Below, piece after piece: positions 12,136-27,448 of a DNA stretch of 27,558 nt. Within the stretch, counting starts at the first letter, position 1. The number at the start of each line of letters is the position of its first letter. Position numbers and translations under genes: made by a program. Source of the DNA: a virus; the UHGV virus genome UHGV-1805288; one strand, given 5' to 3'. A model generated the notes under the pieces. That model worked only from the letters and a program-made list of their open reading frames with translations. It was not told the origin of the DNA and did not search any database.

Positions 12136-13315
12136 CTTTACTACCTTATATCTCTATAAGGAATAGACTATATCTTTACCATGCTTATTAAAATAAGTTT
12201 AGGTAGACCGTACTTCGAGATTAAATCTCTACTCTCCGCCACGAGATAGTCGTTGAACCTTGCTCTGTTCGAGCCTGGGCTGCGCTGGTTGCCTAATTCA
12301 TTTAATTTTTAAAACATTCACGCTTAGGTTTGTTTCATCCTTACGTTGTAGTTTAAATGACTCTAAAGGGTTTCCCGCAATTCTCGGTCTGATAATCACT
12401 TGACGTTTCCATCAAGGACGACTGTTTCCAAAATTTTATATAATTCATATTTTCTATCTAGATGAATTTTACAAGAATCGTATAGTTGTTTTAATATATA
12501 ATAAGGTTTATTAGTACCACCACAGCGAATATAATAACTATTTTTATTATCATTAGCATTACGTTTTTCTAATTTTACCTCCCAATTTAATATACTACAT
12601 ATCCATAATAATAATTCTTGGGTTCCTTGAATACTAATAGTAAAATTATTATATTGAGATGTTTTTGAAATACTTCCATCTCCATCAAAATATCCTAAAA
12701 TGAATGGTAAATAAAATTCTTCAGAAATAATGGGAGGTTTTAGTATTAAACTTTTTCTTGGTACAATTCCTTTATTACTTAAATCATTAGACATTTTTTT
12801 GCTATTAAGAGTTAAGCGAGCCATTGGAGTATTATTAGAATAACCCTCATTTATAATATACGAATTAATTTTAGCATTTGTATTACAAAACTTCTAAAAT
12901 TTTTTTAAATGGGAAATATCTTTCTAATTGATATTAATTATAATTGAAGCATTATGTTCTCTTACATAATTACATCCATCAGCAGCCAAAAATCCTAGCC
13001 AATAAGCTTTTTCAGATGTATCAATTATTTCAAAAATATCATAATTTCCATTATATTTCTATGTGCGTTCTCGTAAAATAATATTTTCTTTATTTTCATC
13101 TAAAATACGTTTAATAGTTTTACGAGAAACCTAATAATAATCTCCAAGTTTTTGCTATGTCCAATTATTATTATATTTAGTTAATATATCATTAATTTGT
13201 TCTTGTGAAAATTCAATTTTTCTCATAGTTATCGCTCCTGTAATAGATTAAGGGATTATCCTCTAATCTATTTAAAAAACGATATAAATGAATTATAAAA
13301 TTTTGTCCAATCAGC
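12136..13315 (-). mobile_element. group I intron in dnaB, carrying a LAGLIDADG homing endonuclease ORF
   Basis: P-like AAUUGCGGGAAACCC (rc of 12368..12382). R-like CAACGACUAUCUCG (rc of 12242..12255) pairs with S-like AAGAUAUAGUC (rc of 12166..12176) as P7 GACUAU/AUAGUC. P9 hairpin CCUUAUA-GAGA-UAUAAGG (12144..12161). Candidate omega-G at 12136. Junction placed where exon 1 ...LRGAKSI joins exon 2 KVDYGAILL... to recreate the DnaB LRxSGSIEQDADL region. The 5' splice site is the least certain part (P1 lacks a U-G pair); boundaries could shift a few nt. Confidence 0.65.
12396..13226 (-). CDS. intron-encoded LAGLIDADG homing endonuclease (two motifs)
   Basis: ATG 13226..13224 with AGGAG upstream. 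Translation contains KAYWLGFLAADGCNYV and LPFILGYFDGDGSISK. Five in-frame TAG (13155, 13131, 13059, 12924, 12894); stop TGA 12396..12398. Track ORF 12396..12824 is its C-terminal piece. Confidence 0.85.
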
Positions 13316-14569
13316 AATAGATTTCGCTCCTCGCAATAAATTCTGGTCTGGAGTTTCTGAATCGACATATCCACCATTAAGCTGCGTTGCTGACATAATA
13401 AATATACCATATTGATTACATAAGTCTTTTAATTTTACAGATAACATAAATAGAATATTATCTTCACGGAGTTTAACTCCACCACTACGACGAGTAATTT
13501 CTTCAAGAATTTTCATACTTGTTTGAATATAATCAAAGAAAATATACTTTACATCATGGTCACGTAGAGCTTTTTTAATTTCATTCTCTACGTCCTATAA
13601 TGAAAAATCTGGTAGCTCTCGTAAATATAGAGGACTGTCTTTAATAATTTCCGCGGCCTTGTGAATACGTTCTTCTTCATCACCCTCATAAGTATTATTA
13701 AGAATATGTTCTTCATTTACATTAGCAAGAAACGCAAGCATCATAGTTTGCACTTCACTCTTATCTTGCTCTGTGGCGATAAATAAAACCGGTTCACTCA
13801 AACCATTATGAATCCATCCAAATGTTTCATCATAAATTTTATTACAAGCAATATAGCATGCATCTGCAACCATAGAACGAGTCTTACCAGTACCAGTAGC
13901 TGCGGACCGCAAATAAAATTTCTTTAATCGCGCACCACGAGTAATTGTATTTACCAATGGCCCATATAATGGACTTCCTGCTTCTGGATGTTCTTTAAGA
14001 TTATCTAATAGATCAAAGATTCCATCACCCGCTTGAATGGCCGCACCATCTACATTTTTTACATATTCATACTTAACTTCTTCAATTCTATCATCTACTA
14101 ATTGCGCTAAATGTTCTAATGAAGAGTTATCAAGATTATCTTCTTGCTTTTGTTTTTTTTCTACATCAAGAATATTATCAGGGTCATAAATAAATGATAC
14201 GTCAATACCATATTTATCATAAGCCCGTAACAATGACATTTTTTTCAAACGATTATAATAATAATCAAATGATAATAATTTAGCATTTTCAGAAACTTTC
14301 ATTAACCATTCTTCGCCTTTATTAGCATTAAAAATGCCTTCATATTTAGGGCGAGTAGATAAAAAATCAAGAATATTTTCTAATGAAACTTTCTCAGCGC
14401 CCAATTCATGAAGTTTATAAATAGCGCCAAAAACAATACGATGAAAATCATCATTAAAATCTTCATCAGTAATTACATATTTATCTGTATAATCCAATAG
14501 CTGGGGTGTGTTATATACACACCCTATAACTTGGGTGACAGCGGTAGAATCTACATATTTACTTCCCAT
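13316..14569 (-). CDS. dnaB: replicative DNA helicase DnaB-like, exon 1
   Basis: Track ORFs 13595..14593 and 13268..13516 share a frame, joined through TAG 13595..13597. Walker A LRSAATGTGKTRSMVADACYIA; H2-like KYIFFDYIQTS; ATQLNGG...NLLRGAKSI. Start most likely the ATG at 14569 (MGSKYVD...) with GAGGAGG 9 nt upstream. Exon 1 + exon 2 = 1527 nt = 509 codons. Confidence 0.8.
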
Positions 14570-15134
14570 CCGCGGGCGCCTCCTCTTCATCAAGGAATGA
14601 AAATAATTTTCTGCGATATGGTTGTCGCTTTGGTAGAGGAATAACTATTTCTATTACTTTTGGAACGTATTGTTGAATTTCTTTATCTTCATTTACTTGA
14701 TGAGCTAACCATAAATCGTAATAATAATTATAACTATCTTTATAAATATAGGGCACAATACCAATTCCGCCATTAGATTTTTCGATAGAATTGCCTTTTA
14801 CTTCATAAAAATATTTTAATGCTTTTAAAATACCAGAATAAGTATATTTATATTCATTAACATATTGATTAATCTATTTGCGAATCCGCGGATTAAGATA
14901 TTCCACTTGAAATAATTTCATAATATATTTTTCTAATTTCTTTTTATCTTCTTCTTCCTATTGAGCTTGTTCAATAGATTTTTTTTCAGCGGCGAGTTTT
15001 TCTAAATATTCTGGCTAATATTCAGGATGTTCACAATTGGTATGTGCATATCTATTACTACGAGGTTTAATATATTGATAAACTTCAGTATCAAATGTTT
15101 GCTAACAATAAAGACATTTTACATTGTGTGCTAT
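14559..15134 (-). CDS. hypothetical protein with N-terminal C2HC zinc-finger-like motif, just upstream of and overlapping dnaB (position suggests a helicase accessory role); start codon unresolved
   Basis: Frame open from TAA at 15138..15140 to TAA at 14559..14561 apart from 5 in-frame TAG. Translation (I)AHNVKCLYC-TAG-QTFDTEVYQYIKPRSNRYAHTNCEHPEY...YIYKDSYNYYYDLW...EEAPADGK. No in-frame ATG/GTG/TTG lies between the upstream stop and the first Cys; ATA at 15134..15132 sits 7 nt after AAAGGAGGAA. Track ORF 14559..14756 is its C-terminus. Confidence 0.5.
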
Positions 15135-15233: not shown

Positions 15234-16232
15234 TTAACCCTTATTAAGTTGAGGAAGAAGGTCTTCCTTCATTTCAGTTACAATCAAGCTAATAAATTCA
15301 GCTTGATCCATGGTAGCATCAGAAACTTTCTTACCTTTACCCAAGTATTTATCAACAATTTGAGTAATACGAGGAGCAAAGAAATTAGGATTCTTATTCA
15401 TCATCTGACCAGTTAGCTCTTGGAACTCATTAATAAGAGCATCATAGTCATAAGATTTAGCGACCTCAGCAACTTCACGTTCATTAGTAACATACTTATT
15501 ATCGTGCATAGCGGCTTCCTTATCAATAGCATCATTAAGAGCCTTAACAAGATTATCATAAGTAAATTCAATCACAGGAGTAATATACTTAAAACGACAA
15601 CCAGTCTCAGCGCTATTGTCAGGAGAACGAAGAACAAGTCTCACCTTAGCTTCACCATTCTCAGTATACTTTTCAGCATAAGCATAAATGTCAGCCATGT
15701 CCTTAGCAATGTTATTATAAGAAGTAGGACAAGTAGGAACAATTTGGTTATACTCAATACCATTCTTATTCTTAAAGGTCTTATCCTTAGAGTGAGAAAT
15801 AAAAACAACAGCATAACCAAGTTGAGTAATTGTGCGGAAAGTCTCTTCAAATTCCTTCTTTACTAAAGTCCAACCTTGACCATAAGGAATACCAGAAAGC
15901 GCATCTACACCATTCTATGAACAAATATATTTCTCACAAAGACCGCCAGCAACATCAACAGTATCAACTGCAATAGACTTAAATCTCTCTTTAACTTCTG
16001 GCTTTTTAAGTTCACGCAAAACCTGCTTCATTTCACCCCAGGTAGTAACATCCTGAGCAAAAACACCAGGCAAAGCATTATAACCTTTCTCAAACGCCAG
16101 AATCAGCGGACTTGGCATATGAGAAGCAAATGTAGTCTTACCACTTTTCTCAGCACCATAAACATAGGTAATATAACCAGAAAGGTCTCTACTAACTTTA
16201 TGGGGCTAAATAGACATTAAATCAATACCCAT
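15234..16232 (-). CDS. Sak4-like / AAA_24-type RecA-fold ATPase (recombination protein), tentative
   Basis: Track ORFs 15915..16118 and 15234..15698 share a frame; full frame open from ATG 16232 (GGAG upstream) with 2 in-frame TAG (16206, 15915). Walker A YVYGAEKSGKTTFA followed by ILAFEKGYNALPGV...VTTWGE...IAVDTVD. Confidence 0.5.
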
Positions 16233-16234
16233 TA

Positions 16235-16399
16235 TTAATTCTCCTTATTATTTTCATCATTAATTATAAAAGCTTCACATTGTTTTAATAAAATATCTAC
16301 TATTTCCTATTGTTTTATATCAAAAGCAATATCATTAAATAAATTTAATTTAGCACGTTGGCCCCTAATGGGGCCATCGTCTTCAAGTGGTAAATTCAT
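16235..16399 (-). CDS. possible small ORF (54 aa) between the SSB-like gene and the Sak4-like gene; may be non-coding
   Basis: ATG at 16399..16397 directly after a TAATAA double stop. Translation MNLPLEDDGPIRGQRAKLNLFNDIAFDIKQ-TAG-EIVD...; it contains the GC hairpin ggcccc-taat-ggggcc (16360..16375), so this may be a terminator rather than a gene. Confidence 0.2.
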
Positions 16400-16402
16400 T
16401 TA

Positions 16403-17341
16403 TTAGAAATTAAAGCCACCAGCTGCAGGAGCCGCAATATTACTCTGACGAGAAGCCTTATACTCATCTTGACGTTGTTTAATAGTAGCAAGATAAGTCT
16501 GACGCTCAGTCATGGCCTAATTAAGCTCAGCTGCAGTAATAAAGTTTTCATCATCCCAAGGATAAGGTTCCTTGGCACCACCAGTAATTACAAAATCCTT
16601 ACGAGTGCTCTGAACCTCACGAACACTATCATCACCAAAAGCGGACTCCTCACGCTCAATACGCTTAATCACTTCAGAAATCTGACGACCCCAAACCTTA
16701 GTGAAAACAGGCTCAGAGTTAGTAGCACCAAGTCCCTCATAATAAGCCATAGCGCCCTCAGAAGTCGCGCTAAATTCAACGGGGAGTAGAGCCTTACGGA
16801 AATCAAAAATAGCGCCACGCACAATAACCTTTTCAGGAAGATTGCGCTCCTCATTAGCATCAATATGAGAAACATTAGTAATAATCATATCACACTTAAA
16901 AGTATTACGCTGATCTTCGGTGACAAGTTCAGCAGGATTATTGATAATATGAACAAATCCACCCTCATTACGCTTAGTACTTACAAGCTCTTCCTTACCA
17001 TTACGATCAGAATAGAACTCATTAAGGCCAATAGCAGAATCAACACGAATAAGAGCAGCTTTATCAGCTCCATCCTTCATATAAGTGCCAATAGCTCCAT
17101 CAATAATATTGCGAAGAGTGCTATAAGTAGCATTAGCACTTCCCTTTGCAGTAGTCGCAGTTACATAAGTAAAATGAACCTACACAATATTAGTAACATT
17201 ATCATCAGTAGCAATACTAATTGTACCACTAATAAAAGGAGTACCAGGATTCTTAGAATTAGGACCACTTTCCTTGGCAGTCAAATCATGCTCGTAAAGA
17301 ATGCCTTCAATATGAGTTGTATTAGTAATTGTCTTCATCAT
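16403..17341 (-). CDS. hypothetical protein (313 aa); possibly an ssDNA-binding or annealing partner of the Sak4-like ATPase
   Basis: Track ORF 16517..17080 extends through TAG 16517 and TAG 17180 to ATG 17341 (AAGGAGA upstream) and stop TAA 16403..16405. Ends ...AAPAAGGFNF. No motif I can name with confidence; the function is a guess from gene neighbourhood only. Confidence 0.3.
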
Positions 17342-17416: not shown

Positions 17417-17445
17417 ATTATAAAATATTTTTTTAGAATTGTCAA
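17417..17445 (-). promoter_or_regulatory. sigma70-type promoter, perfect TTGACA-N17-TATAAT
   Basis: Plus strand attata 17417..17422 and tgtcaa 17440..17445, 17-nt spacer; about 75 nt upstream of the ATG at 17341. Confidence 0.6.
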
Positions 17446-17447
17446 AT

Positions 17448-18083
17448 TTAATTTACTAAAAACTCTCGCGCATATGGTAATGTTTCAATCCAATCACAAA
17501 ATGCTCGCCATTCAGGTAAGCGATGATCATGGCGCTATTTATAAATATTGCGCAAACAACGATAATTTGTAGTCATACGCGCGGTAAGTCTAAATCCAGC
17601 AGGATTAGAATAAAGAATTTCAAGATATCTACGTTTTGCTTCTTCTTGTAGCTAATTCCGTAGATTTTCATCTTCTGGACCAAGAGCTTCAATACGAGAA
17701 ATGAGATTGTTGTAATCATTTACCTTTTCTCGCATAATATCAATAATGCGCTTATCCACATATTCGATATACTATTGATCTAAATCAAACTTAGTAATGC
17801 GGTGCATTGTTGATTGAGAAGAAACAAATTCAAGGAATCTATATCGCTCAGCTTCTACCCATGCTTTATTAGTAAAACAAAGGTCAAAATTGACTCGAAT
17901 ACCAGTCAGAAACTAATGATGTGCGGTATTACCAGTTTTCGTAGCATTTACTAAACGAACACCACGCTAGATATCCTTATCTTCTATAGGACGCATTTCA
18001 GCTTTTGTACGCATAGGATAACCAGAAGCAATAATGCTTTCTTCAAGGTCATAAATTTTTACATTGGATACAATCTAATTCAT
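17448..18083 (-). CDS. thyX: possible flavin-dependent thymidylate synthase (ThyX-like), tentative
   Basis: ATG 18083 with GAGG 6 nt upstream; frame open to TAA 17448..17450 apart from 6 in-frame TAG. Weak resemblance to ThyX blocks: KAWVEAERYRFLEFVSSQSTMHR (compare RQWFRHRIASYNELSGRY) and TNYRCLRNIYKQRHDHRLPEW (compare [20 protein letters not shown]). Confidence 0.35.
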
Positions 18084-18090
18084 TTATACC

Positions 18091-19065
18091 TCACTTAATA
18101 CTATAACCAAATTCTTTAGCTTTAAAATAATTCTACCAATAATCTTCTCGTGTATCAAGCTCTTCACGAGAACATTCTTCGATTACTTCAAAACTAAAAT
18201 TTTCAACTCCAAGAGCTAACATAGCAGGATAAAGTTTATTGCGGGTTGGCGTTTCCGCTCCAATACCACGCTTGATATGCTACTTCCATCTTGCTGCCAG
18301 GTCAACAGCCTATCCTACATAGCACATTTGGTTATCAAGATTAGTAATCTTATAAATACCAGTATGAGTTCCTGAACCAATTACTCGACCAATTAAATCA
18401 GTTGTTGGTTTTTCATAATAACTTTTCCAAATAACTTTATTTAATGTTTCTTTATCGCGTAAATGAGGTTCAATTGACCGTAGTAGTTTAATTTCTTCAA
18501 TATCCACAGATGATAACTATAATTTATAAAAATTAGCTTGATTTTTAATTTCTTCAGTACGTTTAGCTGCTTCAATAGCCGCGTCAACTTCACGAGTTAA
18601 TTTAAAAATCTTATCATCTAAAACTTCTAATTCTCTTTGTTTCTCTTGGATTAAATTTACTAAATCTTCTGAGCAACCAGCCATCAAGTTTTTATAACTA
18701 GATTTATAATCTTGTTTAGCCTACTCATATTTACTTTCTTCTAGCTCTAAATCGTGTGCGATATTAGTTCTAGCTAATTCCATAGACTATTTAAAAAATA
18801 CTTCCGCTGATTGCTTGGCCTAGTTTTGTAATAGGTCTAGACTATTAGAAACTTCTTCTCTTTGAATCTTTAATGAACTTAACTCTTTTGTGAGAGTTTC
18901 TTTTTCATCAACTAGTTGTTTATTAAAATTGTATAACTAACGATTCTCTGTTTCGATTTTCTAATCGTATCGCTGTGTTAATTTTAATTTGGGGCGTAAA
19001 ATTAAATACATTAATACACATCCAAGAATTAATGCGATACTACCTACAATTAAATAAATAGTCAT
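18091..19065 (-). CDS. protein with N-terminal transmembrane helix, coiled-coil middle and C-terminal GIY-YIG-like nuclease domain (DUF4041/T5orf172-like architecture)
   Basis: ATG 19065; frame open to TGA 18091..18093 apart from 9 in-frame TAG. N-terminus MTIYLIVGSIALILGCVLMYLILRP is hydrophobic; middle is K/E-rich heptad-like; C-terminus THTGIYKITNLDNQMCYVG-TAG-AVDLAARWK...REDYW-TAG-NYF. Track ORF 18310..18507 is an internal piece. Confidence 0.5.
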
Positions 19066-19077
19066 ATCTAATAAAAT

Positions 19078-19097
19078 GGGGCAGATTACTCTGCCCC
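19078..19097 (-). terminator. terminator hairpin
   Basis: ggggcaga-ttac-tctgcccc (8-bp GC-rich stem) after the stop at 19118, followed on the minus strand by AUUUUAUUAGAU. Confidence 0.55.
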
Positions 19098-19117
19098 ATA
19101 ATTAATCTATGTTTAAA

Positions 19118-19387
19118 TTACTCAGCATCAGTGGCATCAGGGTCAAAAGCCATGCCAGCCTCGGTCAAGCTCAGAAGCTTGATGGGCTTGTGAGAACCAT
19201 CCTCAAGCTCCATCTCAGCGGGAGTGCGAATGCCAAGACCCTTGCGCTGAATAGCAGAGGTAAAAATACCATCAACAGAACGCTTCTCGAGACCGAGAGC
19301 AGCAGCAACATCAGCGGCGGTCACATCCTGACCCTAAACACTCTTCAAATATTCAAAAACCTTACGAGAATTTTCCTTCATAGCCAT
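19118..19387 (-). CDS. small winged-helix-like DNA-binding protein (89 aa), GC-rich gene
   Basis: Track ORF 19118..19324 extends through TAG 19334..19336 to ATG 19387. Translation MAMKENSRKVFEYLKSV-TAG-GQDVTAADVAAALGLEKRSVDGIFTSAIQRKGLGIRTP... Stop TAA 19118..19120. Base composition is visibly more GC-rich than the flanks. Confidence 0.45.
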
Positions 19388-19453: not shown

Positions 19454-19482
19454 ATTATATCAAAAATTTTTTTATTTGTCAA
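19454..19482 (-). promoter_or_regulatory. sigma70-type promoter, perfect TTGACA-N17-TATAAT
   Basis: Plus strand attata 19454..19459 and tgtcaa 19477..19482, 17-nt spacer; the -35 overlaps the last codons of the upstream small gene. Confidence 0.6.
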
Positions 19483-19672
19483 GTGCTTTACCAAGAATGT
19501 CTTGAACCATTTCGTCAATGATAATAGTATCTTCCAAACAACTTACATGACTAGTTAAATCCATAATATCTAGCTCTGCTTGCCGGATTTTTGACTTATC
19601 ATCACTAGTCTAAATGGTCAATTCAGCTTGAGCAATCTTCTTAGCTAAGTTCTTGAGTTCTTTCTTTTTCAT
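19472..19672 (-). CDS. small hypothetical protein (66 aa), coiled-coil-like
   Basis: ATG 19672..19670; translation MKKKELKNLAKKIAQAELTI-TAG-TSDDKSKIRQAELDIMDLTSHVSCLEDTIIIDEMVQDILGKALDK. Stop TAA 19472..19474. Confidence 0.4.
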
Positions 19673-19705
19673 CTAAAAAATTTCATCCTTAATTTTTACA
19701 AATAT

Positions 19706-19734
19706 ATTATATCACAAATTTTTTATTTTGTCAA
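19706..19734 (-). promoter_or_regulatory. sigma70-type promoter, perfect TTGACA-N17-TATAAT (TG-extended -10)
   Basis: Plus strand attata 19706..19711 and tgtcaa 19729..19734, 17-nt spacer; the -35 overlaps the ligase stop codon. Confidence 0.6.
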
Positions 19735-20855
19735 AAAAGATCGGTTAAACGACAATCTTTGACATCTTTATCATCACGGAAACCCTTAAAAAAGGCATGA
19801 CGCAAAGTATGGTCATCCTTGTTTTTTTCCATACACTGAATAGCAACAACACGATTTAAATATTTTTCTGGATGCTTAGCAAAATCTGCTTTTAATTCAT
19901 CTGTAAGACCTGATGATACTGTTCCAATTTCTATAATTTTATTATTATCATCATAAGCACCAAGTCGAATAGATGTTTTCCATCCATAAAAATAAGGTTT
20001 AGTAACAGGTTCCATTGGAGTTTTAATCATTACACATCCAGCATCATTTAAATATCTACCATGGTAAAGATCACCACTCATAGTTTCAATCCAATATTCC
20101 CAAGTATTTAATTCTTTGCCATTATATTGTTTTGTAGCATCTTCAAACCCGATACAAATACAATCCAAAAAATCCATTTTCTTTACTTTAATTGAAGACC
20201 AAGCAGGTCGTTTATCAGGAGCATACACAGCATCTCGTTTTTTTAAAACAACACCCTCTTCACCCGCATTGAGAGCAGCTGCTGTAAACTCTTGAATATC
20301 ATCTTCTACGCTTTTGGCCAATTCTAAATAATTATATTGTTGTAAATTAAACTTATTCCAAATTTTTGTAAGAATTTGATATCTAACCCATGCACCTTCA
20401 TTTTGTAAATCTACACCATTATATTTAATAACATCATGTAGATAAAAATGAATTAAACCGCTTGTTTGCTGTCTAGTAATAGCTTCATCACTCAGACAGC
20501 CCATAATTTTTGTCACATCTTTTGAAGTTTTTCTAGGATAATAAATTTCACCAATCAAGATAGTGCCTGCTGGTAATTCGGTAAATGCTTCTTTAATATG
20601 AGGAACATTTGCTAATTTTTCAGTAAGAATACCAGTTGTTTTACTTACATTGCGACTAAATAAATAATCATAATGTTCAGTTTTTTCATACTGATACCAA
20701 TATCCATCCTTTTTTAATTCAGCAAAATATTTGCCACTATTACATACAGATGGAAACATATTTTCTTTACCATCAGGCAATTTCCAAATTTTCATTGCTT
20801 GGATACACTCCGCTTCAGGAGCATATTTATCAAGTAATTCTTTTGAAAAACTCAT
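19731..20855 (-). CDS. ATP-dependent DNA ligase
   Basis: Track ORF, 374 aa, no in-frame TAG. Motif I AELKKDGYWYQ (KxDG), motif III ILIGEIYY, motif IV EGVVLKK, motif V SIKVKK. ATG 20855 with AGGAAAAG upstream; stop TGA. Confidence 0.85.
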   Translation of the reverse strand: MSFSKELLDKYAPEAECIQAMKIWKLPDGKENMFPSVCNSGKYFAELKKDGYWYQYEKTEHYDYLFSRNVSKTTGILTEKLANVPHIKEAFTELPAGTILIGEIYYPRKTSKDVTKIMGCLSDEAITRQQTSGLIHFYLHDVIKYNGVDLQNEGAWVRYQILTKIWNKFNLQQYNYLELAKSVEDDIQEFTAAALNAGEEGVVLKKRDAVYAPDKRPAWSSIKVKKMDFLDCICIGFEDATKQYNGKELNTWEYWIETMSGDLYHGRYLNDAGCVMIKTPMEPVTKPYFYGWKTSIRLGAYDDNNKIIEIGTVSSGLTDELKADFAKHPEKYLNRVVAIQCMEKNKDDHTLRHAFFKGFRDDKDVKDCRLTDLF

Positions 20856-20881
20856 AATTTCTTTTCCTATCTTTATATATT

Positions 20882-20910
20882 ATTATACAAAAAGTTTTTT
20901 GAAAAGTCAA
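20882..20910 (-). promoter_or_regulatory. sigma70-type promoter (TTGACT-N17-TATAAT) upstream of the ligase
   Basis: Plus strand attata 20882..20887 and agtcaa 20905..20910, 17-nt spacer. Confidence 0.55.
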
Positions 20911-20916
20911 GTGTTA

Positions 20917-20942
20917 GGTGGCGAAGAACTCGCTTCACCACC
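20917..20942 (-). terminator. GC-rich hairpin after gyrA (terminator or RNA-stability element)
   Basis: ggtggcgaag-aactcg-cttcaccacc (10-bp stem) just 3' of the gyrA stop at 20949; no clear U-tract follows, so termination efficiency is unclear. Confidence 0.35.
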
Positions 20943-20948
20943 CTTATA

Positions 20949-23333
20949 TCAAATCTTAGTAATAGATTTTACATTACCAGTATTAATAAGCGCATTACCC
21001 AATCCGCCACGAGTTCCAATAGGAATATCTTTGGCAGAAATACAAATAGTAGTTTTTTCACCAATGATTAAAATATTATCATCATCAGAAATTAAAGTAC
21101 CACCAATAATACGCTTTTCTGTACTATCTACTTTATATACAGAACTACCTTTCCCTCCACGTCTTTGAACAGGATATTCACTAAGAGGGATTTTCTTGCC
21201 GAGTCCGCAATATGAAAATACAGCAAGAGTATCATTTGTATCTCGGATAGGTAAAGCTGCAACTACTTCATCACCTTCTTTAAGGGTAATAGCCTTAACT
21301 CCTGTACTTACACGACTAGCCGAAGACAAATCTTCAGTAGCAATATGAATAGCCATACCATTTTTAGTAAGAATAAGTACATCTTCATTTTTAATCAAAG
21401 ATACTGAAGCTAGACTATCTCCATCACGGAAATGAGTTGCAATAAGTCCACTCTTTTTAGTATTGATATATTCACTGAGCGCAGTCTTTTTAATTAAACC
21501 ATTCTTAGTTATAAACAATACATATTCCGCTTGGGTATCTTTATAAATAGAATACATAGTAGAAGGCTGTTCATCAGCGCTCATTTTAGTCAAAAGTTTA
21601 ATAGATGTTCCAAGAGAAGCATTAGTACCCACAGGAATATTATTTACTAATAACCGATACATTAAACCCTTATTACTAAAAATCATAAGTGAATCAACAG
21701 TATTTGTGCGTAGTACACAAGAAGTAATATCATCTTGTGACTTTACTCCCTTACCATTGCGCTTCTGAGTGCGAAAACTCGTGGTGGGAATACGCTTAAT
21801 GGTGCCACCTTCAGTCATTACAACTACACATTTCTCAGGTTCAACATATACAGTCTCTTTTTCTTCTTTTGGAATTGTATAATTAGTAAGTTTAGTGCGG
21901 CGCTCATCACCATAATTTTTCTTTAATATTTTAATTTGCTCAATTAAAACATTATCTCTATGGTCTTTATCATTAATAATTTTTAAACATTCAGCAACAA
22001 TTTCTTCATTTTTACGTTTTTCATCAACTAATTCATTTTTATCAATACGAGTTAACCTTGATAACTTCATATCAAGAATAGCATTTGCTTGAACTTCATC
22101 AATAGATAAGAAATTAATTAGTTTATTGCGCGCATCATCTTTATTAGCTGATTGTTTAATTAATTCAATTACTTCATTAATTTTATCAATAGCTGCGAGT
22201 AACCCAACTAAAATATGGATACGAGTTTCCGCCTTTTCTTTGTCAAATTTAGTTGCGTTAAGTAATACATTAGTTTGATGGTCAACATAGGCTTTAATAA
22301 GAGTCTTTAATGAACATAATTGCGGAGTGCCATTAATAATGAAATTCATATTATAAGAGAGAGTAGTTTGTAAATCAGTAAGCTTAAAAATAGTTTCAAG
22401 CGCAGAATTTACATCTATACCTTTTTTAATGGTGAATACAAGTTTATTATTACCAATACTACTTTCATCATCAAAATCTTCAATAAATTTTTCTAAAATT
22501 TCAATATTTTTATTGATATCTTCCTTAATCTTATTGCGATAAGTACGATAAGGAATGGAAGTAAATGTAATTACTCGATCCTTAATTTCATAATCACCGC
22601 GCACTTTAAGAGAAATTGCTGATTTACCCGTATCATAAGCCACATAAATATCTTTTTGATTAATAATTATGCCGCCCAGAGGAAAATCAGGGCCAAGAAT
22701 ATATTTCATTAACTCTTGGGTATTAATTTCACCATTAGCTTGAATATAAGCAATAATACCATCACAAACTTCAGAAAGATTGGCGGGTAAACTATTATGG
22801 CTCATAGAAATACCAATAGCTTCTCTACCATTTACAAGAGCATTAGGAAATAATGCTGGAAGAATGATTGGCTCCATAAATTCACCATTATAAGTTTCTT
22901 TCATAGGAACAACATTCTTTTTAAATGAATTAAACATTAAGTCCGCATACTTACTAGGCTTAGCCTCTGTATAGCGGCTTGATGCAACCATTGAGTTATC
23001 TTCTTGGGTCCCCAAAGCACCTTGACCTTGAATAAGAGGATAGCGCATTAAATAATCTTGTGCCATCTTATAAAGAACACCATAACAACTAGCATCACCA
23101 TGGAAATAACTAGTCATAAGAGTAGAGCCAACTAAACTGTTACATTTCTTAGTTTTACTTTTATTAGTCATTTTAAGATAGTCTTCCATTGTCCAAAGAA
23201 TTTTGCGCTGAGCACTTAGAAGACCATCTTCTGCGTTAGGAATTGCGCGATCAGTAAGCACTTCCTCAGCATAGGTAAGGAAATTGTCTTTAGCTTCATC
23301 TAAAATATCAACTTCTGTAATATAATTTTCCAT
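20949..23333 (-). CDS. gyrA: type IIA topoisomerase subunit A (GyrA/ParC-like)
   Basis: Track ORF, 794 aa, no in-frame TAG. QRKILWTMED...YFHGDASCYGVLYKMAQDYLMRYPLIQGQGALGT...SSRYTEAK contains the active-site Tyr region. ATG 23333 with AAGGAG upstream. Confidence 0.9.
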   Translation of the reverse strand: MENYITEVDILDEAKDNFLTYAEEVLTDRAIPNAEDGLLSAQRKILWTMEDYLKMTNKSKTKKCNSLVGSTLMTSYFHGDASCYGVLYKMAQDYLMRYPLIQGQGALGTQEDNSMVASSRYTEAKPSKYADLMFNSFKKNVVPMKETYNGEFMEPIILPALFPNALVNGREAIGISMSHNSLPANLSEVCDGIIAYIQANGEINTQELMKYILGPDFPLGGIIINQKDIYVAYDTGKSAISLKVRGDYEIKDRVITFTSIPYRTYRNKIKEDINKNIEILEKFIEDFDDESSIGNNKLVFTIKKGIDVNSALETIFKLTDLQTTLSYNMNFIINGTPQLCSLKTLIKAYVDHQTNVLLNATKFDKEKAETRIHILVGLLAAIDKINEVIELIKQSANKDDARNKLINFLSIDEVQANAILDMKLSRLTRIDKNELVDEKRKNEEIVAECLKIINDKDHRDNVLIEQIKILKKNYGDERRTKLTNYTIPKEEKETVYVEPEKCVVVMTEGGTIKRIPTTSFRTQKRNGKGVKSQDDITSCVLRTNTVDSLMIFSNKGLMYRLLVNNIPVGTNASLGTSIKLLTKMSADEQPSTMYSIYKDTQAEYVLFITKNGLIKKTALSEYINTKKSGLIATHFRDGDSLASVSLIKNEDVLILTKNGMAIHIATEDLSSASRVSTGVKAITLKEGDEVVAALPIRDTNDTLAVFSYCGLGKKIPLSEYPVQRRGGKGSSVYKVDSTEKRIIGGTLISDDDNILIIGEKTTICISAKDIPIGTRGGLGNALINTGNVKSITKI

Positions 23334-23344
23334 TAATAATCTCC

Positions 23345-25240
23345 TTACACAAAATTAAAACCAAGGGTTGTAGCATTTTCATAAATATACTGCTTACGAG
23401 GATTCACATTAGGCCCTTCAAGAATATCAAGAAGTTTAACTGTAGCCTCAGCATCACTAACAGTTAAGCGCTTATAACGCTGATTATCAAAACAAATCTC
23501 CTTGAGGGTGGCCGCATTCAGCTCACCGAGACCTTTCGCACGCAAGAGGTCATAAGAACCTGTATGACTAGCTTTCCAATCGTCAAGTTCCTTTTCACTA
23601 TAACAAAAATATTCTTTGTCTTTTTGTTTGATAATATACAGCGGAGTTATAGCTCGATATAATTTACCTGCTTCGACAAGGGGTCTCATATAAGTATAAA
23701 AGAAGGTAATTAATAGTAACTCAATAGCCGCGCCATCTGAATCTTGATCTGAAGTAATAATAATTTTATCAAAATTCATCTTATTGACATCAAAATTATT
23801 ACCAAATCCAGCGCCAATTACTCGAATAATATCACTAATCTCCTGATTAGCTAAAAGTTTTTCAAGAGATTGTTTTAGAGGACTAATAATTTTACCTCTT
23901 AAAAGGTAAATACAATCAGTCTTTACATTACGAGCTTCAACCGCTGAAGTAGCTGCTGACTTGCCCTCAACTAGAAGTAAATTGCGTTGAGAAGGGTCTT
24001 TATTAACACAATCAAAAAATTTATCACTAATAGCCATTTTAGCCTTTAAACCTTTTTCTTTAGGCTGACGAACAGCTTCCTTAGCCTTTTTAGCTTTCTC
24101 GCGTGCGGTTCGTGCTAATAAAGCTTTATCAATGATTGCTTTCGCATCTTTTGGGTTACTATTTAACCAGACTTTTAAATCTTTAGAAACCAATCTTTGA
24201 ACAGCGGTTCTAGCTTCACTACTGGATAAAACATCCTTAGTCTGACCTGAAAATACTGGATCAGGCATAATAAATGAAAGGACGAGACTTAAACCTTCTT
24301 TAAGCTCTTCACCAGTAATATTACTATCTTTATCTTTCAAAAGTTTATTATCTCGCGCGTATTCATTAATCGATTGAGTAAGTGCGGTGCGGAAACCAGT
24401 TAAATGAGTCCCACCACTATTGGGAATTGAATTTGTATAGAGTTTATAATTATCATTATAACTCTCATTATATAACATAGCAATTTTAACACCAATTCTA
24501 TCTTCCATATTTTCAGTATAAAAAATTGATGTTAATTTCTTTTTATTCTTATTAATATCTTCAATATAATCAAGGATACCATGTTGAGAAGTAATTACTT
24601 CTTCGGGTTTATCCTTGTATTTAAATTTAAATGTAAGACCAGGAGAGAGATAAGCTAACTCTTGAATTTGATTTCTAAGAGAAGTGTAATCAAGCTCAAT
24701 AGTTTCTTTAAAAATTTCAGCATCTGGTAAAAACTTTACCCAAGTACCAGTTTCTTTTCCAGCCCATTTTTCTTCTTTATAATCAATAAGTTTACCACGA
24801 ACGAATGAAGCAACTGCGTGTTTACCATCACGAAATGATACAACTTGAAAATGTTCAGATAAGGCATTAGTAGCTTTCGCACCAACACCATTCATACCAC
24901 CTGAAGTATTATAACCAGTTTTACCATTGCTATCAAACTTAGCACCAGTATGAAGCTTAGTATAAATATTTACAAGTGTTTCACTACCATCTTTCGCTTT
25001 GCCAAATGGCACACCACGTCCATTATCACGAATTTCAACATTATTATCTTTATCAATTATAATATCGCATTCAGTGCAATGACCATTTAAATATTCATCT
25101 ACACAATTTGAAATAATTTCAAGCGTAATATGTTTGATACCATCCGCGCCAATCGAGCCGATATACATACCAGGTCTGAGTCGAATCGCGTCAATACCCT
25201 CAAGAGTTTTTATTGATTTTACACCATAATCTTCTGACAA
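23345..25240 (-). CDS. gyrB: type IIA topoisomerase subunit B (GyrB/ParE-like)
   Basis: Track ORF, 631 aa, no in-frame TAG. GHKL ATPase motifs (LEGIDAIRLRPGMYIGS, NGRGVP, GGMNGVGAKA) and TOPRIM (LLLVEGKSAA, DQDSDGAAI). TTG start at 25240 with GGAGGAGG upstream. Confidence 0.9.
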   Translation of the reverse strand: MSEDYGVKSIKTLEGIDAIRLRPGMYIGSIGADGIKHITLEIISNCVDEYLNGHCTECDIIIDKDNNVEIRDNGRGVPFGKAKDGSETLVNIYTKLHTGAKFDSNGKTGYNTSGGMNGVGAKATNALSEHFQVVSFRDGKHAVASFVRGKLIDYKEEKWAGKETGTWVKFLPDAEIFKETIELDYTSLRNQIQELAYLSPGLTFKFKYKDKPEEVITSQHGILDYIEDINKNKKKLTSIFYTENMEDRIGVKIAMLYNESYNDNYKLYTNSIPNSGGTHLTGFRTALTQSINEYARDNKLLKDKDSNITGEELKEGLSLVLSFIMPDPVFSGQTKDVLSSSEARTAVQRLVSKDLKVWLNSNPKDAKAIIDKALLARTAREKAKKAKEAVRQPKEKGLKAKMAISDKFFDCVNKDPSQRNLLLVEGKSAATSAVEARNVKTDCIYLLRGKIISPLKQSLEKLLANQEISDIIRVIGAGFGNNFDVNKMNFDKIIITSDQDSDGAAIELLLITFFYTYMRPLVEAGKLYRAITPLYIIKQKDKEYFCYSEKELDDWKASHTGSYDLLRAKGLGELNAATLKEICFDNQRYKRLTVSDAEATVKLLDILEGPNVNPRKQYIYENATTLGFNFV

Positions 25241-25241
25241 T

Positions 25242-25751
25242 TTAATCCTCCTCCGTTCCTTTTAACAATACTTTTCTTATCATAACCATATCCATTATAT
25301 TAACTATATCTTCCGCACGTTTCTTTCCAGTAGCGAGCGCATCAGCTAACTCATTACCTTCATGTCCATTGTGCCCTCTAATTTTTCTTAAATCAATTTT
25401 ATATCCTTCTTGAAGAAGATTATAATAAGTCTGGATTAATTCTAAATTTTCTGGCGGTCGCTAGTCAGATTTAAGCCAGCCACGTCGCGCCCATCCATAC
25501 ATCCATTCATTAAACGTTGATACACAATATGAACTATCACTATAAACAATAGGAATTTCTTTATCTTTACCATAGTGAATTAATGCCCATAAAATAGCTT
25601 TAATTTCTTGAATATTATTTGTAGTATTTAATTCAAAATGTTGATAAGCATCAACAATTTCACCAGAAGAATTATAGACTACAACTCCAAACCCACCACT
25701 ACTATTAGCACGACCATTATTTTTAGCCGAACCATCAGTATAAATTATCAT
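25242..25751 (-). CDS. ribonuclease H (RNase HI-like)
   Basis: Track ORF 25461..25757 extends through TAG 25461..25463 to TAA 25242..25244. MTMIIYTDGSAKNNG...GGFGVVV...YSDSSY and downstream GHNGHEGNELADALA. ATG 25751 with AAAGGAG upstream. Confidence 0.8.
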
Positions 25752-25782: not shown

Positions 25783-25811
25783 ATTATACCATAAATTTAA
25801 AAATTTGTCAA
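25783..25811 (-). promoter_or_regulatory. sigma70-type promoter, perfect TTGACA-N17-TATAAT, upstream of the RNase H-gyrB-gyrA string
   Basis: Plus strand attata 25783..25788 and tgtcaa 25806..25811, 17-nt spacer. Confidence 0.6.
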
Positions 25812-25907: not shown

Positions 25908-25963
25908 AAGAGAAAACAAAATTGGGGTCATAACTACGTTATGACCCAATTTTGTTTTCTCTT
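25908..25963. terminator. long near-perfect hairpin, probable bidirectional terminator
   Basis: About 27-bp stem with one bulged G and a 3-nt loop, centred near 25936. It overlaps the holin-like stop codon (25962..25964); the 3' arm is U-rich when read on either strand. Confidence 0.6.
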
Positions 25964-26339
25964 AGATGGTTGGCTCGTCTTCTTCAGCCTCTGTATTTAC
26001 TTCATATTCAATATCAGTATCAGTAGTCGCTTCATCATCAGTATAATAACCAGAATTATTACGATAATTTTCATAAGCAAGGTCTAATTCTCGCATCACT
26101 GATTCATATTTTACACCATCTTTAGCATTTTCAACAGTTGATTTCTTATAATAATAAACTTGACTTACACCATAAGCAGCCCAAGGAAGGCTAGCGCTAG
26201 CAGTAAGCCAAGGAAGAGAACCAATATAACCACTATAAATACAATAAAATGCCAAAGCAATATAAGCTAGTGTAGAAATCCAAATTAATGCAGATTCTTG
26301 AATTAAAAGAGTTTTTGAAAACTCAAGTTTCTTTTTCAT
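25962..26339 (-). CDS. holin-like small membrane protein (two predicted transmembrane segments, acidic C-terminal tail)
   Basis: Track ORF, 125 aa. Hydrophobic stretches LIWISTLAYIALAFYCIY and SLPWLTASASLPWAAYGV; tail rich in D/E. ATG 26339 lies 2 nt after the endolysin stop, with the SD (AGGAGG) inside the endolysin's last codons. Confidence 0.45.
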   Translation of the reverse strand: MKKKLEFSKTLLIQESALIWISTLAYIALAFYCIYSGYIGSLPWLTASASLPWAAYGVSQVYYYKKSTVENAKDGVKYESVMRELDLAYENYRNNSGYYTDDEATTDTDIEYEVNTEAEEDEPTI

Positions 26340-26341
26340 TC

Positions 26342-27448
26342 TTATTCCTCCTTAAATAATCTATATAATAAGACTATTAATTCTTCACGAGTAATAAAAC
26401 TTTTATATCGCATATTACCCTTAGTATCACCTTGAATAATTCCTTTATTTTCCGCCCATTTGCGAGCATCCACTGACCAAGAGCCAGGGTCTTTAGTAGC
26501 TAATTCTTTAAGGTAAACCGCCATCTAATTATTAAATGTTTGCTATTCTTTTGTTGTTACTGTTGGAGTAGTAGGTTGTGGTGTTGAAGGCACTTCAGTT
26601 ATGGTGTCTTCAATTTTAGTAATATACTATAAGGAAACCCACCCCTTATCAGTCTAACCCCAACCATTATTTTCTGCGGTAATAGTTATTAATGTTCCCT
26701 AGGGATAACTATATACTTTTGTAAATGTAGTGCCAGGGCCAGAGCGCACGTTTAAGGAAGATGCCACAGTTTTAGCTTGATATTTTACTTTAGTCGATGT
26801 TGAAATATTATTTAATAATAATTCTACATCATCACGCACATTATCCATAGTTTTACCATATTTTTTAAACCAATGTAAAACATCACCATGATTACTACCA
26901 TATCCAAGTTTATAACTATCTGCGTGACATAGGATAGTGGGGATATTAGTTGTGCTTACTTTTACTGTTGCTTTTGGATTAATATTATAAATTAAACATA
27001 AATAAGCTGTTAATTCACAGGCTTCTTTATAAACAGCATTAAAATAAGTTTCATCAAGGAGATTATCCTCACATATTTCAAATTGTATCCAGCCTGTATT
27101 ACAGCTACCTTTAGAACCAGAACCGCAACCCCATGGGCGATAATTCCATGGCATAGTCTATATGGTAGTAACAGTGCCATCAGCTAATTTACCTATAAAA
27201 GCATTTAATCCACTCTATTGGGTTGTTGAATTATAATCAGTTTTAGCAGTATTTTTACCTATTTTTTGAATAAGTGTTTTATAATTTTTATCTGTGATGC
27301 TAGGCTAAACATAACGTTTAAGGTTAGGATTATTAGCTCCAGTGCTATGCCATAAAATACCTTTAATATTCATTACTCTTGTGCTCTTATAACATGTGCT
27401 ATTGGTCATTATACATTCAAGAGGCGGATTATTTTTTGAGTATTTCAT
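26342..27448 (-). CDS. endolysin: N-acetylmuramoyl-L-alanine amidase domain + SH3b-like domain + C-terminal SLH domain
   Basis: Track ORFs 26699..27154 and 26342..26524 share a frame with the region up to ATG 27448 (AAAGGAG upstream); 8 in-frame TAG, stop TAA. Amidase-like GILWHSTGANNP...NTGWIQFEICED...CHADSYKLGYGSNHGDV; SH3-like SLNVRSGPGTTFTKVYSYP-TAG-GTLITITAENNGWG; PT-rich linker; SLH-like SWSVDARKWAENKGIIQGDTKGNMRYKSFITREELIVLLYRL. Confidence 0.75.

What the first reader, a model, noticed from the sequence alone, without database searches (positions are those of the whole stretch)
19731..25240. Ligase, GyrA and GyrB contain no TAG codons while neighbouring genes contain up to 10 each
Ligase, GyrA and GyrB total about 1800 codons with zero in-frame TAG. 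DnaE (1337 codons), DnaB (509) and primase (367) have one each. RecJ has 10 in 540, the RecD-like helicase 8 in 397, the endolysin 8 in 369 and the DUF4041-like protein 9 in 325. At the roughly 1.4% rate seen elsewhere, about 25 TAG would be expected in the gyrase/ligase block. In recoded phages this kind of bias has been interpreted as temporal control: genes needed before the suppressor is available avoid the recoded codon. Recent acquisition of these genes is the alternative.
Basis: seen in the sequence. Interest (0 to 1): 0.7.

Follow-up and report, generated by a model that had tools for sequence, protein, structure and literature searches.

The report
Recoded phage keeps replication genes amber-free
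In a gut phage that reads the stop codon TAG as glutamine, selection keeps TAG out of the gyrase, ligase and core replication genes but lets it pile up in nuclease, lysis and tail genes, which is a clear, well-conserved example of a pattern already described for such phages.

Summary
Ligase, GyrA and GyrB (window 19731-25240, minus strand) have 0 in-frame TAG in 1,799 codons. The other 6,199 codons of the window have 65, so about 19 were expected (Fisher p=9e-8).

TAG means Gln here (code 15). No gene ends in TAG.

The bias comes from selection, not from chance or recent acquisition:
- The gene order is conserved in more than 100 related metagenomic phage contigs.
- In 10 divergent TAG-recoded lineages these three genes carry 281 CAA and 104 CAG but no TAG. 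The neighbouring GIY-YIG gene carries 67 TAG and 12 CAG.
- Codon usage of the block matches the rest of the genome.
- The published relative phAss-1 and TGA-recoded relatives show the same avoidance.

The block is not special. DnaE, DnaB, primase and an upstream early block are also nearly TAG-free.

In the window, perfect sigma-A consensus promoters sit directly upstream of the TAG-free units. TAG-rich genes are nucleases, homing endonucleases, lysins and tail genes.

This fits the published "code-switch" timing model (Yutin 2021; Borges 2021/22), but timing itself was not measured. No suppressor tRNA was found in this phage; some relatives have one next to gyrase.

Verdict: a new member of a known kind, of moderate-to-low interest.

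The parts
19731..20855 (-). ATP-dependent DNA ligase, 374 codons, 0 TAG (8 CAA, 3 CAG), stop TGA
   Evidence: Pfam DNA_ligase_A_M E=6e-21. Codon counts. 0 TAG in the orthologues of all recoded relatives.
20949..23333 (-). GyrA-type topoisomerase II subunit A, 794 codons, 0 TAG (16 CAA, 3 CAG)
   Evidence: Pfam DNA_topoisoIV E=2e-105 plus DNA_gyraseA_C. 0 TAG in the orthologues of about 100 related loci, except 1 TAG each in L006 and L028, at a conserved Gln.
23345..25240 (-). GyrB, 631 codons from the TTG start (607 from the called start), 0 TAG
   Evidence: Pfam DNA_gyraseB, Toprim, HATPase_c. 0 TAG in every related locus.
25242..25751 (-). RNase H, 169 codons, 1 TAG. First gene of the unit that continues into GyrB-GyrA.
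   Evidence: Pfam RNase_H in the gene call. Codon counts. The TAG is CAG/CAA in strains 95-98% identical.
25783..25811 (-). Perfect sigma-A-type promoter (TTGACA, 17 nt, TG-TATAAT), 32 nt upstream of RNase H
   Evidence: 12/12 matches are expected 0.045 times per strand in 43 kb of shuffled sequence; 6 were found, all intergenic.
25925..25947 (-). Terminator-like hairpin after orf126, separating the lysis-side genes from the RNaseH-gyrase unit
20882..20910 (-). 11/12 promoter-like site, 27 nt upstream of the ligase gene
19454..19734 (-). Two perfect promoters (19734-19706 and 19482-19454), upstream of two small ORFs (66 aa at 19472-19672; 89 aa at 19118-19387)
   Evidence: The promoter before the 89-aa ORF is conserved in 30 of 31 recoded relatives.
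19076..19099 (-). Terminator-like hairpin immediately upstream of the TAG-rich GIY-YIG gene
18091..19065 (-). A conserved TAG hot spot.
   Evidence: Pfam GIY-YIG E=2.5e-10; PHROG homing endonuclease. 4-15 TAG in most recoded relatives and 8/326 in phAss-1. 29 TAG per 1,000 codons across relatives.
17448..18083 (-). orf212 (phrog_6721, function unknown), 211 codons, 6 TAG
17417..17445 (-). Perfect promoter upstream of YorF-AAA_24
15234..17341 (-). YorF-like gene (16403-17341, 2 TAG/312) and AAA_24 ATPase (15234-16232, 2 TAG/332). TAG-poor, with G-ending codon bias.
11866..14593 (-). DnaB helicase in two pieces (14593-13310 and 12144-11866; 1 TAG in the exons). The 1,165-bp insert at 12145-13309 carries a LAGLIDADG endonuclease (12396-13226) with 5 TAG.
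10570..11673 (-). Primase, 367 codons, 1 TAG
   Evidence: orthologue counts
8261..10000 (-). RecJ-like exonuclease, 579 codons, 12 TAG and 1 CAG
   Evidence: Pfam DHH and RecJ_OB. Up to 14 TAG in heavily recoded relatives, 3-6 in lightly recoded ones.
5540..6730 (-). RecD-like SF1 helicase, 396 codons, 8 TAG
   Evidence: Pfam AAA_30 and UvrD_C_2. TAG count ranges from 0 to 8 among relatives.
5506..5534 (-). Perfect promoter between the RecD-like gene and DnaE
306..5463 (-). DnaE (YorL-like PolIII alpha) in two pieces (5463-2929 and 1778-309; 1 TAG in about 1,320 codons). The 1,150-bp insert at 1779-2928 carries a GIY-YIG endonuclease (1912-2730) with 3 TAG.
   Evidence: Relatives L055 and L096 have an uninterrupted 1,331-aa DnaE with 1-2 TAG.
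25962..27448 (-). Endolysin (26342-27448, Amidase_2 plus SH3_3, 8 TAG/368) and orf126 (25962-26339, two predicted membrane helices by eye, 0 TAG)

Best explanation
The window comes from a large (188-kb scaffold), low-GC gut phage. Its replication module is related to that of SPbeta-like, Enterococcus EF1-like and phAss-like siphophages. The phage reads TAG as glutamine, but only in some genes.

AT-biased mutation keeps turning CAG into TAG wherever that is tolerated. Purifying selection removes TAG from genes that must be translated by the host's unmodified, standard-code machinery. These are the type II topoisomerase, ligase, DnaE, DnaB, primase and a block of small takeover genes upstream of the window.

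In the window these genes sit directly behind consensus host sigma-A promoters, so they are probably early genes.

Genes loaded with TAG would end at the first TAG until amber suppression is established. They therefore act as translationally gated middle or late genes, even where they lie between early genes on the same strand. They include the GIY-YIG nuclease, three homing endonucleases, RecJ, a RuvC-like resolvase, PhoH/PIN, lysins and tail fibres.

Shown here: TAG means Gln; the avoidance is selective and clade-wide; the promoters are placed as described; late and nuclease genes are TAG-rich.

Inferred: the timing, and the existence and source of the suppressor in this phage.
For: Recoding and codon identity
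- TAG-as-sense restores coding density.
- TAG aligns mostly with Gln, including in non-recoded relatives.
- 0 of 51 genes end in TAG.

Depletion and selection
- Block: 0/1,799 against 65/6,199.
- In 10 dereplicated recoded lineages, GyrA, GyrB and ligase have 0 TAG against 104 CAG and 281 CAA. The GIY-YIG neighbour has 67 TAG against 12 CAG.
- 28 of 32 conserved-Gln columns switch CAA/CAG, but only 1 has TAG.
- Strains 95-98% identical show TAG/CAG changes in neighbouring genes but none in gyrase or ligase.
- TAG and CAG are complementary: TAG-rich genes have 93 TAG and 8 CAG; TAG-poor genes have 3 TAG and 46 CAG.

Wider sample
- About 80 further loci have 0 TAG in GyrA and GyrB.
- DnaE has 0-2 TAG in about 790 codons even in heavily recoded lineages.
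- phAss-1 genome-wide: gyrase-like genes, ligase, DnaE, primase and NrdD have 0 TAG. Its GIY-YIG orthologue has 8/326 and its tape measure protein 110/3,150.
- TGA-recoded relatives keep GyrA and GyrB free of in-frame TGA, apart from 1 in L130.

Late genes
- A 1,345-aa tail-fibre protein in the nearest relative has 26 TAG, against 1 in its 1,331-aa DnaE.

Promoters and suppressor tRNAs
- Six perfect sigma-A promoters, all intergenic, precede RNaseH-GyrB-GyrA, two small ORFs, YorF, DnaE and one ORF beyond the window. The expected number is 0.045.
- Apart from one homing-endonuclease family (5 of 12 loci), no TAG-rich family has such a promoter in any relative.
- tRNA(CUA) genes with Gln-like features (by my own reading of the sequences: mismatched 1:72, G73) lie between RNase H and GyrB in L152, L193 and L194.
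- phAss-1 has two Sup-CTA tRNAs just downstream of GyrA and the GIY-YIG gene.

Literature
- The model is published: 10.1101/2021.08.26.457843 and PMC7886860.
Against: - No transcript or protein time course exists, so 'early' rests on promoter consensus and gene function.
- No suppressor tRNA was found in the window, in 43 kb of the source scaffold, or in about 20 kb more from near-identical strains.
- Promoter placement is only partly conserved. A promoter scoring at least 11/12 precedes RNaseH or GyrB in about 21% of recoded relatives and DnaE in 12%.
- Some genes expected to act together with the replisome are TAG-rich in this lineage: RecJ, the RecD-like helicase, and NrdD with 4 TAG.
- A holin-like gene family is TAG-poor.
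- If the host is a Firmicute without GlnRS (my own knowledge, not tested), how a CUA tRNA would be charged with Gln is unclear.
Confidence: 0.7

Rival explanations
1. Dosage or efficiency rather than timing. Amber suppression is always partial, so every TAG lowers the yield of full-length protein. Genes needed in full amounts avoid TAG. Genes that are harmful in excess (nucleases, homing endonucleases, lysins) accumulate TAG as a permanent throttle, whatever the stage of infection.
For: - The most consistent TAG hot spots inside the replication module are DNA-cutting enzymes: the GIY-YIG gene (29 per 1,000 codons), the RuvC-like resolvase (30 per 1,000), homing endonucleases (11-13 per 1,000), and a serine recombinase with 7 TAG in 215 codons.
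- TAG-rich and TAG-free genes are interleaved on one strand.
Against: Structural genes, which are needed in large amounts, are among the most TAG-rich: the tail fibre has 26/1,345 and the phAss-1 tape measure protein 110/3,150. A yield of full-length protein after 26-110 partial read-throughs would be negligible unless suppression becomes efficient at some stage. That requirement brings timing back in.
Confidence: 0.17
2. Neutral by-product of protein constraint. TAG arises mainly through amino-acid-changing mutations (AAG, GAG or TAT to TAG) in fast-evolving proteins. Slow-evolving enzymes such as gyrase have simply had fewer chances to acquire it.
For: - In the GIY-YIG gene many TAG positions align with K or E as well as Q, in a variable N-terminal region.
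- TAG-rich genes have a higher total Gln content: 4-6% against 2.4-2.9%.
Against: - The synonymous route from CAG to TAG is open. The three genes hold 104 CAG in dereplicated lineages, and 28 of 32 conserved Gln columns switch CAA/CAG, yet TAG is essentially absent.
- All 12 conserved Gln columns of the GIY-YIG gene carry TAG in some lineage.
- Conserved enzymes such as RecJ and PhoH carry 10-14 TAG in heavily recoded lineages.
Confidence: 0.08
3. Recent acquisition. The gyrase and ligase genes were recently captured from a standard-code host or phage and have not yet had time to acquire TAG.
For: Only that these are host-like housekeeping enzymes and that they are TAG-free.
Against: - The gene order is conserved in more than 100 related contigs and in phAss-1.
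- GC is 0.325 and GC3 0.186, as elsewhere; RSCU r=0.93-0.95.
- Non-recoded, TAG-recoded and TGA-recoded relatives all carry the genes in the same place.
- The GyrA orthologues have diverged to 39-72% identity while staying TAG-free.
Confidence: 0.02

Closest known systems
Partial stop-codon recoding in gut phages, with standard-code replication genes and recoded late or lysis genes (Ivanova 2014, cited from memory; Yutin et al. 2021, PMC7886860; Borges et al. 2021/22, 10.1101/2021.08.26.457843)
   Same: - TAG is read as Gln.
- Recoded codons are concentrated in structural and lysis genes and absent from DNA replication genes.
- Endonuclease genes that interrupt replication genes are enriched for the recoded codon.
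- The same clade mixes code 11, 15 and 4 lineages.
- The proposed mechanism is the same: early genes are translated in the host code, and late genes are unlocked by a suppressor.
   Different: - Here TAG-rich and TAG-free genes alternate gene by gene on one strand inside the replication region, rather than forming large blocks.
- The conserved hot spots include a GIY-YIG nuclease next to gyrase, a RuvC-like resolvase and RecJ. The parts of that paper I read do not single these out.
- No suppressor tRNA, release factor or aminoacyl-tRNA synthetase was found in the sequence available for this phage.
phAss-1 / proposed 'Phassvirus' group (Babkin et al. 2023, PMC10607447; GenBank OQ749652)
   Same: - TAG-recoded gut phage of about 136 kb with a related replication module: DnaE 39% identical, plus YorF, AAA_24, RecJ, NrdD, gyrase-like genes, ligase and the GIY-YIG gene.
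- My recount shows the same per-gene pattern.
   Different: - It is only a distant relative (GyrA 29%, GyrB 29% identity), with a different gene order.
- It carries three annotated tRNA-Sup-CTA genes.
- The paper reports which ORFs contain TAG. In the Results section I read, it does not analyse per-gene bias.
Agate clade of Borges et al. (about 127-154 kb; mixed codes 11, 4 and 15)
   Same: - Similar genome size range.
- Mixed genetic codes among close relatives.
- Replication machinery free of the recoded stop codon.
- A recoded endonuclease gene inside an interrupted early gene.
   Different: Membership was not tested: no terminase gene was retrieved for this phage. The contigs of this clade reach 188-201 kb.
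Codon-usage and tRNA-based timing in T4-like phages (cited in Borges et al.)
   Same: Late genes are matched to phage-supplied tRNAs. In a near-identical strain the phage tRNAs all read A-ending codons apart from tRNA-Cys, while a subset of TAG-free genes uses G-ending codons.
   Different: In T4 the effect is a graded difference in efficiency. Here an in-frame stop codon gives an all-or-none block.

Membership tests
Code-15 (TAG to Gln) partially recoded phage | In-frame TAG codons break genes under the standard code, and reading TAG as sense restores full-length genes | tested here: met
   Minus-strand open frames cover 61% under the standard code and 92% with TAG as sense. The restored proteins have full-length Pfam matches.
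Code-15 (TAG to Gln) partially recoded phage | TAG positions align with glutamine in homologues | tested here: met
   Gln is the commonest residue opposite TAG in most of the families tested (10 of 12, counting one tie), including in non-recoded relatives. The single GyrA TAG aligns with Gln in 38 of 38 sequences.
Code-15 (TAG to Gln) partially recoded phage | TAG is not used as a terminator | tested here: met
   The 51 genes of the 43-kb composite end in TAA (39) or TGA (12) and never in TAG.
Code-15 (TAG to Gln) partially recoded phage | A phage-encoded amber suppressor tRNA (anticodon CUA) | tested here: inconclusive
   None was found in the window, in 43 kb of the source scaffold, or in about 20 kb of near-identical strains. 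It is present in relatives L152, L193, L194, L162 and L166 and in phAss-1. About 145 kb of the scaffold could not be read.
Code-switch timing model (Borges et al.) | The recoded codon is depleted in replication and early genes and enriched in structural and lysis genes | tested here: met
Code-switch timing model (Borges et al.) | TAG-free genes are expressed before TAG-containing genes | not testable with these tools
   Only indirect evidence: perfect sigma-A promoters upstream of TAG-free units and none upstream of TAG-rich genes other than one endonuclease family.
SPbeta-like / EF1-like / phAss-like large siphophages | A YorL-type DnaE with the yorF-yorL-like replication gene order, followed by nrd and dut genes | tested here: met
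   DnaE is 39-40% identical to SPbeta YorL, Enterococcus phages H1 and EF1, and phAss-1. A YorF Pfam family hit and the gene order are shown. The comparison with the SPbeta gene order rests on my own knowledge.
SPbeta-like / EF1-like / phAss-like large siphophages | Related structural module (terminase, capsid, tape measure protein) | not tested
   The structural genes of this phage were not reached. Only tail-fibre-like genes of relative L124 were seen.
Agate clade (Borges et al.) | Placement in the large-terminase phylogeny | not tested
   No terminase sequence was available.
Type IIA topoisomerase (gyrase / topo IV) subunits A and B | DNA_topoisoIV plus GyrA C-terminal repeats; HATPase_c, DNA_gyraseB and Toprim domains | tested here: met
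   Whether the enzyme supercoils DNA (gyrase) or only relaxes and decatenates it cannot be told from sequence.

The most novel reading that the evidence does not exclude
Inside the early replication region, in-frame TAG codons act as a safety catch specifically on DNA-cutting enzymes. These are the GIY-YIG nuclease beside gyrase, the endonucleases that interrupt DnaE and DnaB, a RuvC-like resolvase, RecJ, PhoH/PIN, and a serine recombinase in one lineage.

Even if these genes are transcribed early alongside the replisome genes, their products could be made only after the code switch. TAG-free units each restart from their own strong promoter just downstream of a TAG-rich gene, which would protect them from the polar effects of untranslated RNA upstream. 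On this reading, recoding times nuclease activity as well as lysis. A second layer, G-ending against A-ending codons matched to phage tRNAs, would split the TAG-free genes further.
Probability: 0.3. Interest if true: 0.55.

Novelty: new member of a known kind. Interest (0 to 1): 0.33.

Why it matters
This is a clean natural example of a stop codon used as a gene-by-gene translational gate. More than 100 related genomes use no recoding, TAG recoding or TGA recoding, and the core replication genes tested exclude whichever stop codon is recoded. DnaE and the gyrase genes are the best-sampled cases.

That makes the clade a good system for testing the code-switch timing model experimentally. It also shows gene annotators that a single genome may need two codes.

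It does not change the current picture, because the principle and the replication-versus-late contrast are already published.

Tried and rejected
- Megablast of the block against GenBank phages found nothing. tblastn with GyrA found only hits at or below 34% identity.
- Suppressor tRNA search. ARAGORN and Rfam found no tRNA in the window, L001, L042 or the first 123 related loci.
- I walked upstream with orf126, a Gp5.9-like protein and an HNH protein. This reached a tRNA cluster in a near-identical strain: Thr, Ser, Leu, Lys, Ile and Cys, but no CUA tRNA.
- A degenerate tRNA-like element at L214 8460-8526 (39.5 bits) has an unreadable anticodon loop. I did not count it as a suppressor.
- Rfam gave no group I intron for the DnaE and DnaB inserts, so 'intron' remains an inference from the exact junctions.
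- A walk from the tail-fibre end returned only one contig.
- I checked by eye whether the first TAG sits unusually early in TAG-rich genes and saw no clear bias. I did not pursue it.
- Gene length as the cause was rejected: a 1,345-aa tail fibre has 26 TAG and a 1,331-aa DnaE has 1.


Full report
**What is in the window**

All genes lie on the minus strand. Under the standard code, open frames cover 61% of that strand. With TAG read as sense they cover 92%; making TGA or TAA sense does not help in the same way.

Pfam and PHROG searches identify the following genes:
- an ATP-dependent ligase (19731-20855), GyrA (20949-23333) and GyrB (23345-25240)
- RNase H
- an Amidase_2/SH3 endolysin
- YorF-like and AAA_24 proteins
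- DnaB, primase, RecJ, a RecD-like helicase and a YorL-type DnaE

No tRNA or other Rfam family is present.

Ligase, GyrA and GyrB have 0 TAG in 1,799 codons. The other genes have 65 in 6,199 (1.05%), so about 19 were expected.
- Fisher p=9e-8, or p=7e-6 when TAG is compared only with CAA and CAG.
- Heterogeneity across all 23 genes is strong (G=90.8, p=2.5e-10).

RecJ has 12 TAG in 579 codons, not 10 in 540. The background rate is 1.05%, not 1.4%.

**What TAG means**

In alignments with relatives, including relatives that do not use TAG as sense, TAG aligns mostly with Gln, then with Lys and Glu. None of the 51 genes in the 43-kb stretch I could assemble ends in TAG. This is genetic code 15.

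**Where the sequence comes from**

The exact GyrA protein is encoded on a 188,073-bp human-gut scaffold and on a second, independent 25-kb contig. Joining two look-ups gave 43 kb of the scaffold.

DnaE is 39-40% identical to SPbeta YorL, to Enterococcus phages EF1 and H1, and to the published TAG-recoded phage phAss-1 (PMC10607447).

Three scans of IMG/VR with window-derived queries returned about 200 related loci, from contigs of up to 240 kb. Some use no recoding, most use TAG, and some use TGA.

**Recent acquisition is refuted**

- The order endolysin, orf126, RNaseH, GyrB, GyrA, ligase, GIY-YIG gene, and so on to DnaB and primase is conserved across relatives whose GyrA is only 39-72% identical.
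- The block has the same GC, GC3 and codon usage as the rest of the genome (RSCU r=0.93-0.95).

**The avoidance is selective**

- In 10 dereplicated TAG-recoded lineages, GyrA, GyrB and ligase contain 281 CAA, 104 CAG and 0 TAG. The adjacent GIY-YIG gene contains 98 CAA, 12 CAG and 67 TAG.
- At 32 conserved Gln columns of the three genes, 28 switch between CAA and CAG among recoded relatives, so synonymous change is frequent. Only one column ever shows TAG. All 12 conserved Gln columns of the GIY-YIG gene do.
- Strains 95-98% identical to the window differ by TAG/CAG/CAA changes in RNase H, orf212 and YorF, but not in gyrase or ligase.
- Within the scaffold, TAG and CAG are complementary. TAG-rich genes have 93 TAG and 8 CAG; TAG-poor genes have 3 TAG and 46 CAG. 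This fits AT-biased mutation turning CAG into TAG wherever selection allows it.

**The block is not special**

TAG-poor genes:
- DnaE has 1 TAG in about 1,320 codons here, and 0-2 in about 790 even in the most heavily recoded relatives.
- DnaB, primase, AAA_33, a metallophosphatase, Band_7, guanylate kinase, NrdG and dUTPase are also TAG-poor.
- In a closely related contig, a roughly 14-kb upstream block of small takeover-type genes has 3 TAG in about 4,400 codons. It includes a T7 Gp5.9-like protein.

TAG-rich families across relatives, in TAG per 1,000 codons:
- the GIY-YIG gene, 29
- a RuvC-like resolvase, 30
- a lysozyme-like gene, 34
- homing endonucleases, 11-13
- RecJ, 8
- endolysin, 7
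- genes on the opposite strand beyond dUTPase, up to 35

In the nearest relative, a 1,345-aa tail-fibre protein has 26 TAG while the 1,331-aa DnaE has 1. Gene length and high expression are therefore not the cause.

**Independent replicates**

- My recount of the complete phAss-1 genome gives 0 TAG in its gyrase-like genes, ligase, DnaE, primase, YorF, AAA_24 and NrdD. Its GIY-YIG orthologue next to GyrA has 8 TAG in 326 codons, and its tape measure protein has 110 in 3,150.
- TGA-recoded relatives keep GyrA and GyrB free of in-frame TGA, apart from one in L130.

**Evidence on timing**

The 43-kb stretch has six perfect TTGACA-17-TATAAT promoters on the coding strand, most with an extended -10 TG. 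The expected number is 0.045. All are intergenic. They lie 25-196 nt upstream of:
- RNaseH-GyrB-GyrA
- two small ORFs
- YorF
- DnaE
- one ORF beyond the window

An 11/12 site precedes the ligase gene.

Terminator-like hairpins lie after orf126, just before the GIY-YIG gene, and after AAA_24. TAG-rich genes thus sit at the far ends of transcription units or behind terminators, and a strong promoter restarts each TAG-free unit.

Across relatives, apart from one homing-endonuclease family (5 of 12 loci), no TAG-rich family has such a promoter. However, the promoters before gyrase and DnaE are conserved in only 12-21% of loci.

**The suppressor**

No suppressor was found for this phage. In three relatives a tRNA(CUA) lies between RNase H and GyrB on the coding strand. 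By my own reading of the sequences, all three have a mismatched 1:72 pair and G73, which are Gln-like identity features. Two other relatives have tRNA arrays containing a CUA tRNA just upstream of AAA_33. phAss-1 has two Sup-CTA genes just downstream of GyrA and the GIY-YIG gene.

**Comparison with what is known**

- Yutin et al. (PMC7886860) reported stop-codon reassignment mostly in late genes.
- Borges et al. reported replication machinery in the standard code and structural and lysis genes in the alternative code. They also reported an intron endonuclease in an early gene that is enriched for the recoded stop, closely related genomes with different codes, and a model in which early genes are read in the host code before a switch.

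The present case fits that description closely.

What it adds is modest:
- gene-by-gene interleaving within the replication region
- a conserved set of nuclease hot spots
- strong clade-wide evidence for selection
- convergent avoidance of two different recoded stop codons

**Verdict**

Recent acquisition is rejected and selection is demonstrated. Temporal gating is the best-supported mechanism but remains inferred. This is a new member of a known kind.

Noticed in passing
window 1779-2928 and 12145-13309: DnaE and DnaB are each interrupted by an insert of about 1.15 kb. One carries a GIY-YIG endonuclease (1912-2730) and the other a LAGLIDADG endonuclease (12396-13226). The junctions are exact when compared with uninterrupted genes in relatives, which looks intron-like. 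Rfam detects no group I intron, even at E<=1. Both endonuclease genes are TAG-rich (3 and 5 TAG).
   Followed up: partly
window 15234-17341; L001 1618-3018; L210 1178-2701 and 8557-10008: A subset of TAG-poor genes has GC 0.36-0.46 and a strong preference for G-ending codons: YorF, AAA_24, Band_7, DUF2828 and an RNA-ligase-like gene. Band_7 has AAG 41 against AAA 2, and CAG 22 against CAA 3. Gyrase, ligase and DnaE use the genome's usual A-ending codons. This may be a second, tRNA-linked layer of codon-based control, or a sign of foreign origin.
   Followed up: partly
L214 5789-10648 (near-identical strain, about 10-15 kb upstream of the window's right end): Scattered tRNA genes: Thr-UGU, Ser-UGA, Leu-UAA, Lys-UUU, Ile-UAU and Cys-GCA. 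All but Cys read A-ending codons, and several lie behind perfect sigma-A promoters. An HNH endonuclease between them has 3 TAG in its first 26 codons.
   Followed up: partly
L214 7807-7919 and 8460-8526: A RAGATH-33 RNA (138 bits, above the gathering score) lies directly after tRNA-Leu(UAA). A degenerate tRNA-like element (39.5 bits, missed by ARAGORN) has an anticodon loop, UGUUAAA, that cannot be read with confidence.
   Followed up: partly
window 19118-19387: An 89-aa ORF lies behind a perfect sigma-A promoter that is conserved in 30 of 31 recoded relatives. From its sequence it may be a small DNA-binding regulator, but this was not tested.
   Followed up: no
L060-L080 lineage, about 19 kb into the NrdD loci (e.g. 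L060 minus strand): A serine recombinase/invertase-like gene carries 7 TAG in about 215 codons, in a lineage that is otherwise only lightly recoded.
   Followed up: no
L130, L154, L156, L164, L171, L186 and others: Some relatives of this clade appear to be TGA-recoded rather than TAG-recoded, and others are not recoded at all. The genetic code therefore changes repeatedly within the clade.
   Followed up: partly
L193 13227-13323: The tRNA(CUA) of this relative is 97 nt long, with a long extra segment after the anticodon arm. This could be a long variable arm or an insertion.
   Followed up: no
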